Origin: an uncultured Armatimonadetes bacterium
GTDB taxonomy: Bacteria; Armatimonadota; UBA5829
DNA: 64,000 nucleotides
Reading direction: 5' to 3'
Assembly (NCBI GenBank): GCA_963711155.1
Contig: CAVQDB010000005.1
Coordinates: 899,298-963,297, forward strand
Shown: piece by piece, positions 40,972 to 42,566 of the stretch
How positions within the stretch are numbered: the stretch's first letter is position 1
How the letters are laid out: each line of letters opens with the position of its first letter
The notes under the pieces: model-generated
Seen by the model: only the letters and a program-made list of their open reading frames with translations
Told to the model about the DNA's origin: nothing
Database searches by the model: none
Program-made: the position numbers and the translations under genes

Positions 40972-41684
40972 TCAAGAGCCACCGCCGCGCTTCTTCAGCA
41001 GGGCGTATCCACCTTGTTGGACGGCTCCTAGGCAATCGATGCCAAAACCGGCAGAGATCCCCGCTTGGGTAATCCGGGTGGTCAAATCGGCCGAGCTCAC
41101 ACTCGTCGAAGCGAAAAGACAGTCAGTGCCGTGTATCCCGCCTGGCATCTGAACTATTTCGCATTGCTCCAGCATATCCCGATACGTGGGGAAGCACGCA
41201 AAGCCCGCGTGCACACTGGCCTTTCTGGAGAAGCAGAGGCGGTCGTTCCAGCCCCAGCAGAGAGAAAGGAACGTACATGGCAGTCCCACGCGCATCACCT
41301 CAGAGCTGCTGCAGAACAGCTCGATCATCCCATAACCTTCCAAACGCAGCAGGTCGAGAGAAGCAACGGGATGACCGTCGAGATTCTGCTCGATCTCGTA
41401 ATAGCCCGCCGCAGCGCGGCGTTCCACGTATGGCCAGAAGGCACGAACGCAGGAGAGCCCCAACTCGCGCAGCACACTCTCCCGGTATGCTTGTTAGTGA
41501 AAGTCCACACTCCTATGGCACCCTCAGGCCCGGCGATCGCCGAGATCAGTCGGGAGGCTGCGTCAGCATACAACCCGTGATTGCTGTCAGGCGACAGAAT
41601 CCGCTCGGCCACGTCGACAAGAGCGACGTCACAATCAAGCAGGTCGCCCTTTGGCAGTAACCACTCAGGCCAGGGCGGTACCAT
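40972..41684 (-). CDS. Candidate immunity protein for the upstream Rhs tip, one frame break near ~41480
   Basis: Starts 28 nt after the Rhs-tip stop. Pieces lie in ORF 41325..41840 (from 'MVPPWPEWLLPKGD') and ORF 40972..41475. The junction reads '...VWTFTNKH/YRESVLRELGLSC...'. No known domain recognised. Confidence 0.45.
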
Positions 41685-41712
41685 AGCGGCCACCTCCAGC
41701 CGCGCGTTGGCA

Positions 41713-42440
41713 TCAGAATTCCTTCCCGTTGAGTGCGTCATATAAATCCCTCCACATCTTCGACCAGCCGCTGACGCTGTTCTGCACGTCGAAATGAGGT
41801 TTGCCGTGGGTAAAGAAGTCCACGAACACCTGGCGCGCACCGTTCGTTATGGCAACTCCGGTAGCCTGGCCCGTTCGCTGACTGCGGCATATCTTCGCTG
41901 GACATCCTCCGGGCCACCCTCTAGGGCTTGGATGATCCGTATCGCCCAGGGGTAGAGCGCAATCTCCAGTCTCTGGATGACACGAAGCCCCAGCGCCTAC
42001 AGCGGCAGATGCTGCTGTGACCTCCTGCACCAGCACGTCGTCTGGACCATATACAAGCCCCGTCGCGTCGGTATAGGACACGGGGTCGCCACTACAGTAA
42101 GCGTACCAGTTGCTTCCTTGCCCCGCCGGATCCTCGCTTATAAACCTCCCCAGCTCCGGGTCGTAGTAGCGGGCGCGCATGTAGGTCAGGCCGGTCGAGT
42201 CGGCTGTGTGGCCGAGGCCGCCGCAGAACTTGTGCTTCGACGCGCTCGCCGAGTCATCGCTTTCCAAGGGGCGAACCGACCCGTAGACATCATACGCGCG
42301 CGTCGCGGTGACGATGGGATGGCCGGTCGCGTTATCGCCCTCGTCTACCTCCGCGAGCACACTGCCGAGCCCGTCGTAGAGATACCACGACCGCGTCGGC
42401 GTCTCCGGTACGTCGTCCTGCCTATATCCTACACCACGCG
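41713..42440 (-). CDS. Orphan Rhs C-terminal fragment with ~113-aa tip of unknown fold
   Basis: ORF 41713..42360, with Rhs homology continuing without a start codon to ~42437. The upstream homology reads 'RGVGYRQDDVPETPTRSWYLYDGLGSV'. Core end 'YMRARYYDPELGRFISEDP...DPVSYTDATGL', then a unique tip ending 'ITNGARQVFVDFFTHGKPHFDVQNSVSGWSKMWRDLYDALNGKEF'. Confidence 0.7.
42131..42437. repeat. ~310-bp direct repeat (Rhs core-end DNA), copy 2
   Basis: See 40301-40612. Confidence 0.9.
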
Positions 42441-42566
42441 GGCCCTTTCCTCTTTCGGGATTTCGGCAGTACGCGCGGTCGAACTGCTATCTTCGGAGTG
42501 ATGCCCCAGACCCCCGCACCCGCCCGGTCCCTTCCCTTCTACTCCCTATTCCCTACTCCCTATTCC

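What the first reader, a model, noticed from the sequence alone, without database searches (positions are those of the whole stretch)
40972..42475. Orphan Rhs toxin tip with an unrecognised ~113-aa C-terminal domain and an adjacent candidate immunity gene
ORF 41713..42360 carries the end of an Rhs core ('YMRARYYDPELGRFISEDP', then 'DPVSYTDATGL' at the usual cleavage position). Rhs homology continues upstream of the ORF to ~42437. The core end is followed by a unique, 4-Cys tip ending '...ITNGARQVFVDFFTHGKPHFDVQNSVSGWSKMWRDLYDALNGKEF'. I cannot assign this tip to any toxin family. Twenty-eight nt downstream starts a ~237-aa ORF (one frame break) with no recognisable domain, in the canonical immunity position. 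There is no Rhs N-terminal body, PAAR, VgrG or other delivery gene nearby. The fragment begins abruptly at ~42440, next to a remnant of the MITE-like TIR (TTTCGGGATTTCGGCAGTACGCGCGG, 42447-42472). This fits the orphan rhs-CT/immunity cassette model known from Enterobacteria, but in a very different lineage and with a novel tip.
Basis: partly seen in the sequence, partly recalled or inferred. Interest (0 to 1): 0.65.

Follow-up and report, generated by a model that had tools for sequence, protein, structure and literature searches.

The report
Frame-shifted orphan Rhs toxin cassette
This is a leftover, headless copy of a bacterial Rhs "toxin tip plus antidote" cassette; the middle of its supposedly novel cysteine-rich tip is a reading-frame artefact, so it is an ordinary and probably dead member of a known kind of system.

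Summary
The Rhs core end is real: TIGR03696, E=3.6e-21, ending at DATGL. It is 5'-truncated at about 42445, and the 64-kb window holds no Rhs body. The cassette is the first of two tandem orphan modules; the second is at about 40849-39913.

The "4-Cys" tip is not a real protein segment. The only close homologue anywhere is P0003, an orphan Rhs fragment on a metagenome contig. It matches the window in the ORF's frame at both ends of the tip, but in a different frame for 41990-41907. GC3 and codon scores show the same switch, and all four cysteines lie in the off-frame stretch.

The downstream partner gene starts at ATG 41741 and overlaps the toxin stop by 29 nt, exactly as in the homologue. It is also frame-broken, between 41495 and 41420.

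The repaired tip has no Pfam, NCBIfam, PADLOC, PDB or Foldseek match. One distant homologue ends a full-length, signal-peptide-bearing Rhs protein in a Chthonomonadaceae genome assembled from a metagenome (a MAG).

The closest Rhs cores are all from Armatimonadota, where tandem orphan arrays with short unannotated tips are routine.

Verdict: an orphan Rhs-CT/immunity cassette, a known kind, carrying a rare uncharacterised tip family. It is probably decayed; assembly indels cannot be excluded. Low interest.

The parts
42453..42478 (+). Single TIR-like arm (TTTCGGGATTTCGGCAGTACGCGCGG), 8 nt beyond the 5' truncation point of the Rhs fragment
   Evidence: Exact match is unique in the window at up to 3 mismatches. 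No inverted partner within 600 nt. Its first 14 nt are shared with the arms of two short palindromic elements at 60698-60795 and 61619-61726.
42055..42445 (-). Rhs core-end fragment 1 (RGVGYRQDD...YMRARYYDPELGRFISEDP...DPVSYTDATGL); 5'-truncated, no own credible start
   Evidence: TIGR03696 E=3.6e-21 over profile 1-76/76. 84-94% DNA identity to the second copy at 40251-40613. tblastn of fragment 2 residues 80-207. Codon score +27 bits in this frame against -55 and -59 in the others.
41713..42054 (-). Toxin tip 1 as assembled (113 codons plus stop). Only about 42054-41986 and about 41864-41716 are in the ancestral frame
   Evidence: Full HMMER scan of 1.84e9 representatives finds only itself and P0003 as true hits. 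DNA alignment to L001. AF2 model of the P0003 tip (alignment A2: P0003 tip plus repaired window tip): pLDDT 61, alpha-alpha-beta4-alpha.
41863..41990 (-). Off-frame segment inside tip 1, the source of the '4-Cys' stretch. Relative to L001 there is +1 nt at about 41983 (a GGGG run), and the frame is restored somewhere in 41915-41863 (+1 and +19 nt)
   Evidence: P0003 residues 220-247 hit 41990-41907 in a different frame (tblastn E=0.002). GC3 phase switches 1->0->1. Codon log-odds for 41985-41910: frame 2 +3.7, ORF frame -10.5.
40972..41741 (-). Candidate immunity gene 1: ATG 41741 overlaps the toxin stop by 29 nt; frame break between 41495 and 41420; about 255 aa when repaired
   Evidence: N-terminal 31 codons are colinear, without gaps, with the gene that starts 29 nt before the P0003 stop in L001. 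Codon scores favour frame 2 for 41739-41500 and frame 1 for 41420-40975. No Pfam, NCBIfam or PADLOC hit and no homologue. AF2 pLDDT 34.
40860..40965 (.). Partial copy of a hairpin-rich intergenic repeat that begins 7 nt after the stop of immunity gene 1 and separates the two modules
   Evidence: Repeat family with copies at 38362-38474 and 39554-39666. The two full copies fold into two hairpins, z about -3.
40148..40849 (-). Rhs core-end fragment 2 (longer, about 200 aa of core), followed by only 26 codons of tip before a stop
   Evidence: TIGR03696 E=1.2e-19. 60% identity to P0003 residues 15-201. 52% identity to residues 982-1183 of the L018 Rhs ORF.
39913..40197 (-). 94-aa strongly hydrophobic ORF in another frame, overlapping the end of fragment 2 by 50 nt. 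Probably the frame-shifted remainder of tip 2 rather than an immunity gene
   Evidence: Max 19-aa Kyte-Doolittle (KD) hydropathy 2.39. Related Armatimonadota tips are 83-157 aa (median 119) and 35 of 66 are similarly hydrophobic. The link to tip 2 is inference.

Best explanation
The locus is a 5'-truncated ('orphan') Rhs C-terminal toxin module with its partner gene. It is the first of two tandem modules in a chromosome whose closest Rhs relatives are Armatimonadota (Chthonomonadales).

How intact relatives work:
- The protein is an ~1300-aa Rhs with a Sec signal peptide, a DUF6531 plug and YD repeats.
- It ends at a D-x-x-G site, followed by a tip of about 110 aa.
- By analogy with characterised Rhs proteins, the shell encloses the tip, self-cleaves at that site, and the tip poisons a neighbouring cell. 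The overlapping downstream gene protects the producer.

What an orphan module can do: it cannot be exported by itself. It is a stored alternative tip that could be swapped onto a full-length rhs by recombination through the conserved core end.

State of this copy: it is not intact as assembled.
- The tip is shifted out of frame for about 25-40 codons and then back.
- The partner gene has a frame break.
- The second module's tip is cut after 26 codons.
I therefore read it as a decaying relic in a pseudogene- and repeat-rich stretch.

The ancestral tip belongs to a tiny uncharacterised family (window, P0003, and the distant CT of the L018 Rhs). It has a predicted alpha-alpha-beta4-alpha layout and invariant T, R, D, H, D, Q, W in the beta-rich half. 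My best guess for activity is a small metal-independent nuclease, held at about 0.3; this step is inferred, not shown.
For: Shown:
- Rhs core end.
- Truncation, and absence of any Rhs body in the window.
- A second module 1.8 kb away with 84-94% identical core DNA.
- The frame switch in the tip, by three independent lines: homology to P0003/L001, GC3 phase and codon log-odds.
- The partner gene's overlapping start is conserved in L001, and it has a frame break.
- Neighbouring genes are also broken: rhamnosidase domains are split over two frames, and B12/radical-SAM pieces lie in several frames.
- Long genes elsewhere in the window are intact: GH20 937 aa, SHMT, the epimerase and the sulfatase. 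That uneven pattern argues for gene-specific decay rather than uniform error.
- The closest cores are Armatimonadota at 50-59% identity, and tandem orphan arrays are common there.
- The full-length relative L018 has a signal peptide, DUF6531 and RHS repeats, no PAAR hit in the Pfam scan, and a distantly homologous tip.
- No promoter signal above chance upstream of the cassette.
Against: - The frame breaks could be assembly indels. The first sits at a GGGG run, and several other genes in the window also look frame-shifted (ComEC near 20507, the helicase near 34312-34559).
- The shift in the tip is compensated, so the ORF stays open and the conserved C-terminal half is still in frame. That could mean the gene is still under selection.
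- The source genome could not be retrieved, so the existence of a full-length rhs with a matching core is untested.
- The toxic activity, the immunity function and the proposed nuclease activity are untested. The structure model is only moderate (pLDDT 61) and matched nothing.
Confidence: 0.55

Rival explanations
1. The frame breaks are assembly (long-read homopolymer-type) indels. In the real genome the module is an intact orphan rhs-CT/immunity pair with a P0003-like tip, available for recombination onto a full-length rhs.
For: - The first break is at a GGGG run.
- The off-frame segment still shows amino-acid conservation (43% over 28 aa) and good codon usage in its own frame, so any real frameshift would be very recent.
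- Frame switches appear in several unrelated genes of the window, including ComEC, whose Competence domain stops at profile position 149 of 270.
- The source is a 2.44-Mb contig absent from the species-representative genome set.
Against: - Breaks are very unevenly distributed. At least 5 fall within 1.7 kb of the radical-SAM gene, while about 12 kb of long ORFs have none.
- The tip differs from L001 by +1, +1 and +19 nt, not by a single base.
- Three or four breaks fall within 2.5 kb of the array.
Confidence: 0.33
2. One reading: the ORF as printed encodes a functional novel toxin whose 4-Cys segment is genuine (for example a disulfide or metal-binding module), with an immunity gene that has one frame break.
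For: The ORF is open from 42360 to 41713, and the C-terminal conserved half is in frame. A compensated frameshift could in principle create a new functional segment.
Against: - In the Cys-bearing segment, codon scores clearly favour another frame for 41985-41910 (-10.5 against +3.7 bits), and the ORF frame scores lowest of the three for 41909-41865. The GC3 phase switches to the other frame over the same stretch.
- In that other frame the segment is homologous to P0003.
- No homologue of the Cys segment was found among 1.84e9 representative proteins.
- An open off-frame run of about 40 codons is not unlikely at 62% GC: my estimate is about 0.2-0.3, an inference.
Confidence: 0.05
3. The orphan fragment is expressed on its own from an internal start and works inside the cell as a toxin-antitoxin-like pair, as reported for the Salmonella orphan Rhs (PMC7043789), rather than as a silent reserve.
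For: In L001 the orphan fragment has an ATG that overlaps the stop of the preceding ORF (ATGA), which suggests translational coupling. The toxin and partner genes overlap by 29 nt in both loci.
Against: No promoter-like site above chance upstream. The window fragment has only an internal GTG as a start. Both genes are frame-broken here.
Confidence: 0.07

Closest known systems
Orphan rhs-CT/rhsI (and cdiA-CT/cdiI) modules of Enterobacteria (Poole et al. 2011, PMC3150448; Koskiniemi et al. 2014, PMC3967940)
   Same: A 5'-truncated fragment keeps only the end of the conserved core. It is followed by a variable tip and an adjacent small partner gene. Modules sit in tandem. Core-end identity between copies (84-94% DNA here) could support tip swapping by recombination.
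   Different: No full-length rhs lies next to the array within the window. The cleavage motif is D-x-x-G-[LKE] rather than the canonical DPxGL. Both genes of this module are frame-broken. Intact relatives in this lineage carry Sec signal peptides, and the one scanned against Pfam (L018) shows no PAAR or other T6SS-linked domain.
WapA-type, Sec-exported YD/Rhs-repeat toxins of Gram-positive bacteria (from my own knowledge: Koskiniemi et al. 2013 PNAS)
   Same: The related full-length proteins (L004, L018) start with a classical signal peptide, followed by YD/Rhs repeats and a short polymorphic tip.
   Different: Different phylum and envelope. The export route of the Armatimonadota proteins is inferred from the signal peptide alone. 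The window holds no such full-length gene.
P0003 / L001 (JGI metagenome 3300023203, contig Ga0255812_10665217) and the tip of the L018 Rhs (JAYUMV010000365.1, Chthonomonadaceae MAG)
   Same: P0003 is the only close homologue of the tip: 51% identity to the repaired tip, with the same overlapping partner-gene start. The L018 tip is a distant homologue (hhalign probability 69-88%, E 3e-6 to 4e-5) and shares the motif R-x-V-F-[IV]-D ... H-[FI]-D-[VF]-Q.
   Different: P0003 is uninterrupted, whereas the window copy is frame-shifted. L018 carries the tip on a full-length Rhs, has a 14-residue insertion, and its downstream ORF is unrelated to the window's partner gene.

Membership tests
Rhs / YD-repeat polymorphic toxin, C-terminal module | Rhs-associated core domain (TIGR03696) ending at the self-cleavage site | tested here: met
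   E=3.6e-21, 75.5 bits against a cut-off of 32.5, profile 1-76/76, ending at the GL of DATGL.
Rhs / YD-repeat polymorphic toxin, C-terminal module | Canonical PxxxxDPxGL cleavage motif | tested here: inconclusive
   The window has DPVSYTDATGL. Relatives have NPVNSLDPDGK, NPVSASDSSGE and SPTTQVDASGK. That gives a lineage variant D-x-x-G-x; cleavage itself is untested.
Rhs / YD-repeat polymorphic toxin, C-terminal module | Variable toxin tip after the motif, belonging to a recognised toxin family | tested here: not met
   A 113-codon tip is present. Pfam, NCBIfam and PADLOC give nothing. A PDB sequence search gives nothing. Foldseek against PDB and BFVD gives nothing below E=0.2.
Orphan rhs-CT/immunity cassette | Lacks the N-terminal Rhs body and any delivery domain | tested here: met
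   Homology starts at 42445. tblastn with a 1315-aa Rhs ORF finds only the two core-end fragments in 64 kb.
Orphan rhs-CT/immunity cassette | Cognate immunity gene immediately downstream | tested here: inconclusive
   An ORF starts 29 nt before the toxin stop, and its position and first 31 codons are conserved in L001. It has no family and no homologue, it is frame-broken, and protection is untested.
Orphan rhs-CT/immunity cassette | A full-length rhs in the same genome shares the core-end sequence (usually adjacent) | not testable with these tools
   The source contig (2.44 Mb, NCBI/ENA) could not be fetched. None is present within the window.
Orphan rhs-CT/immunity cassette | Intact reading frames for toxin tip and immunity | tested here: not met
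   The tip is off frame over about 41990-41863, and the partner gene breaks between 41495 and 41420.
MITE bordering the fragment | Two terminal inverted repeats flanking a short element | tested here: not met
   Only one arm, at 42453-42478, with no partner within 600 nt.
DUF4160-like His-hairpin domain (my own lead, from the motif xVFxDxxxHxxxPHFDV) | Match to the Pfam model | tested here: not met
   No hit even at E<=5-10 for the tips or for their C-terminal halves. HMMER's filters limit sensitivity.

The most novel reading that the evidence does not exclude
The ancestral tip (P0003 type, about 110 aa) defines a genuinely new toxin fold and activity confined to Armatimonadota. It would be part of a lineage-specific class of Sec-exported Rhs proteins whose tips are uniformly short (median 119 aa), often membrane-like, and none of which matches a known toxin family. 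A more exotic variant, which I put at about 0.05, is that the compensated double frameshift in the window copy is a real, selected way of creating a new toxin segment.
Probability: 0.3. Interest if true: 0.45.

Novelty: new member of a known kind. Interest (0 to 1): 0.22.

Why it matters
It matters little in itself. Orphan Rhs tip/immunity cassettes are well known, unannotated tips are common, and this copy is probably dead.

Two things are useful:
1. It is a caution. An ORF that stays open in high-GC DNA can hide a compensated frameshift, and a "novel Cys-rich domain" can be an artefact of that.
2. The comparison set points to an unstudied class of Rhs toxins in Armatimonadota: signal peptide and no PAAR hit in the full-length examples checked, and tips of about 120 aa, half of them strongly hydrophobic and none of those scanned in Pfam. 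That class would be a better target than this particular locus.

Tried and rejected
- **Word-index homologue searches.** Searches with the tip as read, with the P0003 tip and with the repaired partner protein returned nothing or only the query itself.
- **Hits P0002, P0004 and P0005 from the full HMMER scan.** These are repeat proteins matching short low-information stretches, not homologues.
- **Metagenome scan with the tip alignment.** The single hit (L002) lies antisense inside a GMC oxidoreductase ORF, so it is spurious. The viral-contig scan found nothing.
- **First genome-contig scan, with exact peptides.** Nothing found, so the source genome is not in that set. Exact look-ups of window proteins on contigs also failed.
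- **Plasmid megablast.** No match.
- **Foldseek.** The rank-2 PDB hit, CdiA-CT of Enterobacter cloacae (4ntq_A), has E=1.4 and TM 0.25-0.32. I rejected it as not significant.
- **DUF4160-like idea.** Not supported by Pfam.
- **Apparent motif similarity to the L004, L012 and L016 tips.** Not supported by hhalign: the tested ones score 1% or less, and L018 is the only other hit.
- **AF2 on the repaired partner protein.** pLDDT 34, unusable, so no fold search was done.
- **L018 downstream ORF against the window partner protein.** No similarity.
- **My crude frame-HMM.** It suggests many frame switches across the window, but it is too noisy in weakly coding regions to count frameshifts reliably.
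- **Homopolymer statistics.** Inconclusive on the question of assembly error.

Full report
**What is in the sequence**

On the minus strand, ORF 41713..42360 (215 aa, GTG start) carries YMRARYYDPELGRFISEDP and DPVSYTDATGL. Extended in frame to 42438, it matches the Rhs-associated core domain TIGR03696 over the whole profile (E=3.6e-21), and the match ends exactly at the GL of DATGL. Homology to Rhs starts abruptly at 42444/42445.

A second Rhs core-end fragment, which the finding did not mention, lies 1.8 kb downstream at about 40849-40148 (TIGR03696 E=1.2e-19). The two core ends are 94% and 84% identical at the DNA level over 177 and 169 nt.

tblastn with a full-length 1315-aa Rhs ORF from a related genome finds only these two fragments in the 64-kb window. 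So there is no Rhs body here. Both copies are 'orphans', arranged in tandem.

**The tip is not what it seems**

A full HMMER scan of 1.84 billion representative proteins with the 113-aa tip returned five hits:
- the ORF itself;
- three repeat proteins that match short low-information stretches;
- one real homologue, P0003 (305 aa).

P0003 is itself an orphan Rhs fragment, on a 1337-nt metagenome contig, L001. It aligns with the window ORF at the start of the tip (GxDVLxxEVxAASAAVGAG) and over the last 50 or so residues (GVxITNGxRQVFxD...HFDVQ...GWxxMWRxLY). Its middle (LVQRIQVTMYAWGAQIIAALEGAEEIV) instead aligns with a different reading frame of the window (LRVIQRLEIALYPWAIRIIQALEGGPEDV). tblastn reports this as a separate hit at 41990-41907 (E=0.002).

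The DNA alignment shows that, relative to L001, the window has +1 nt at about 41983 (a GGGG run), then +1 nt at about 41915 and +19 nt at 41881-41863. The net change is +21 nt, so the ORF stays open.

Two measures that do not depend on homology agree:
- The GC3 phase switches from the ORF's phase to the other phase and back across 42055-41875.
- Codon log-odds for 41985-41910 are +3.7 bits in the other frame against -10.5 in the ORF frame. The flanks clearly favour the ORF frame.

All four cysteines (tip codons 25, 32, 51, 56) fall in the stretch where the ORF frame is not supported. The '4-Cys tip' is therefore an out-of-frame read-through, not a domain.

**The partner gene**

In L001 a gene starts 29 nt before the P0003 stop. 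Its 31 available codons are colinear, without gaps, with the window frame that starts at ATG 41741, which also overlaps the toxin stop by 29 nt (MTHSTGRNSDANARLEVAAMVPPWPEW against MQKSPICASRSAVPLELAELAAPWPAY). The gene therefore most likely starts at 41741, not at the ATG 28 nt downstream of the stop.

Codon scores put its first part in one frame (41739-41500) and the rest in another (41420-40975), with a break between 41495 and 41420.

The repaired 255-aa protein has no hit in Pfam; its two pieces also have none in NCBIfam or PADLOC. No homologue turned up apart from its own fragment, and its AF2 model is unusable (pLDDT 34). It is in the right place and shows a conserved coupling to the toxin gene, but nothing shows that it is an immunity protein.

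**What the tip might be**

The P0003 tip and the repaired tip have no match in Pfam, even at E<=10; the tip as assembled has none in NCBIfam or PADLOC. The tip alignment A2 finds nothing among PDB sequences.

An AF2 model from the two-sequence alignment is of moderate quality (pLDDT 61; two helices, four strands, one helix). It finds nothing significant with Foldseek in PDB or BFVD. The best hits are E=0.96 and 0.2, and the CdiA-CT hit 4ntq_A at E=1.4 is not significant.

Among 85 tips extracted from related loci, hhalign singles out one. This is the C-terminus of a full-length 1307-aa Rhs protein in a Chthonomonadaceae MAG (L018), at probability 69-88% and E 3e-6 to 4e-5. The next best tip scores 3%.

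That protein has a signal peptide, a DUF6531 domain and RHS repeats, with no PAAR hit. So a relative of this tip does sit on a complete Rhs protein.

Across the three sequences, the invariant polar residues in the beta-rich half are T66, R70, D75, H84, D86, Q88 and W98. From size, layout and these residues I guess a small metal-independent nuclease, at no more than about 0.3. This is inference only.

**Lineage and context**

A genome scan with the core-end alignment gave 56 loci. The best, at 50-59% identity, are all Armatimonadota, Chthonomonadales or Chthonomonadaceae MAGs, or unclassified 'uncultured bacterium' MAGs. The source genome itself is a 2.44-Mb NCBI/ENA contig. It is not in that collection and could not be fetched.

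In the related genomes:
- Tandem arrays of 2-5 core-end fragments are common.
- Full-length proteins begin with Sec signal peptides.
- Tips are uniformly short: 66 tips, median 119 aa, range 83-157, and 35 of them are strongly hydrophobic.
- None of the ten tips scanned has a Pfam family.

An orphan Rhs cassette with an unassignable tip of about 113 aa is therefore typical for this lineage.

**State of the locus**

The array sits among other broken genes. An alpha-L-rhamnosidase is split over two frames (42712-44755). A B12/radical-SAM gene is scattered over at least five frames (44479-46199). The second module's tip stops after 26 codons, and a 94-aa hydrophobic ORF in another frame probably represents its remainder.

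A hairpin-rich repeat of about 113 nt follows each module within a few bases of the stop codon. A single TIR-like arm lies 8 nt beyond the 5' truncation point. No promoter-like site above chance precedes the cassette.

Long genes elsewhere in the window are intact. That uneven distribution makes me favour real decay over uniform sequencing error. However, the first break sits at a G-run, and ComEC and a helicase also look frame-shifted, so assembly indels remain a serious alternative (about one third).

**Verdict**

The headline feature, a unique 4-Cys tip, is an artefact of a compensated frameshift.

The interpretation as an orphan rhs-CT/immunity cassette stands. It is a new, probably non-functional member of a known kind of system, carrying a rare uncharacterised tip family with three detectable members.

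The more interesting lead is the lineage-wide pattern of short, unannotated, often hydrophobic Rhs tips on signal-peptide Rhs proteins in Armatimonadota.

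Noticed in passing
window 40849-39669 (-): A second orphan Rhs module. It has about 200 aa of core end, then only 26 tip codons before a stop. 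Next comes a 94-aa very hydrophobic ORF (40197-39913) in another frame that overlaps by 50 nt. This ORF is probably the frame-shifted rest of a membrane-type tip, given that related tips are 83-157 aa and often hydrophobic. A 73-aa ORF with a strongly hydrophobic stretch (39890-39669; max 19-aa KD 2.14, probably membrane-spanning by eye) would then be the candidate immunity gene.
   Followed up: partly
window 38362-38474, 39554-39666, 40860-40965; related pieces in 37277-37681: An intergenic repeat of about 113 nt that folds into two hairpins (z about -3 for the two full copies). It starts 3-7 nt after the stop codon at 39669 and at 40972, so it follows each of the two modules; the copy at 38362-38474 lies inside the long ORF 38191-39426, whose reality is doubtful. 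Its core hairpin motif (GCTTTTCGCCCCGAAG) also recurs in three 135-nt tandem repeats inside a YtxH-like ORF (36933-37691). Its role is unknown; terminator, REP/MITE-like element or recombination site are all possible.
   Followed up: partly
window 42712-44755 and 44479-46199 (-): Immediately upstream of the array, an alpha-L-rhamnosidase is split over two overlapping frames. A B12-binding radical-SAM gene is scattered over at least five frames. The next gene (FMN reductase, 46253-46777) is intact.
   Followed up: partly
window 20035-21624 (-) and 32691-35724 (+): ComEC: the Competence domain match stops at profile position 149 of 270, and the coding frame appears to switch near 20507, next to two GGGG runs. 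A DEAD-box/HRQ1-like helicase is split into two ORFs that overlap in different frames (34312-34559). These are either real frameshifts or assembly indels, and they bear on how far to trust frames anywhere in this window.
   Followed up: partly
window 32987-33383 (+): Three tandem 120-nt repeats, 99-100% identical and in frame (40 codons each), inside the DEAD domain of the helicase gene.
   Followed up: no
window 16282-16709, 47945-48284, 60698-60795, 61619-61726: Several families of short palindromic or tandem intergenic repeats:
- 26-nt and 34-nt period arrays at 16.3-16.7 kb.
- A 72-nt period array of 26-nt palindromes (CGCCCAGCAAACGGAATTGCTGGGCG) at 47.9-48.3 kb.
- Two small elements with TGTTTCGGGATTTCGGA-type inverted arms near 60.7 and 61.7 kb. 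These are the elements whose arm resembles the solo arm at 42453.
   Followed up: no
loci L003-L043 (Armatimonadota MAGs); e.g. L004 7075-10909, L018 7049-10972, L012 1600-7423: Rhs proteins of this phylum look like a distinct class:
- The full-length examples checked (L004, L018) have a Sec signal peptide and are about 1300 aa; L018, the one scanned against Pfam, shows no PAAR.
- Cleavage motif D-x-x-G-x.
- Tips only 83-157 aa (median 119), with 35 of 66 strongly hydrophobic.
- None of the 10 tips scanned is in Pfam.
- Arrays of 2-5 orphan fragments are frequent.
- In L018 the gene upstream of the Rhs encodes a Peptidase_C39 domain protein.
   Followed up: partly
L001 355-358: In the metagenome homologue, the orphan Rhs fragment has its own ATG overlapping the stop of the preceding 117-aa ORF (ATGA). 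This suggests the fragment may be translated there by coupling, unlike a silent reserve cassette.
   Followed up: no
window 38475-39553 (-): A stretch of about 1.08 kb between two copies of the hairpin repeat, covered by part of a long ORF (38191-39426). It has no Pfam, NCBIfam or PADLOC hit. It could be a third, toxin-less remnant (an orphan immunity gene) of the array.
   Followed up: no
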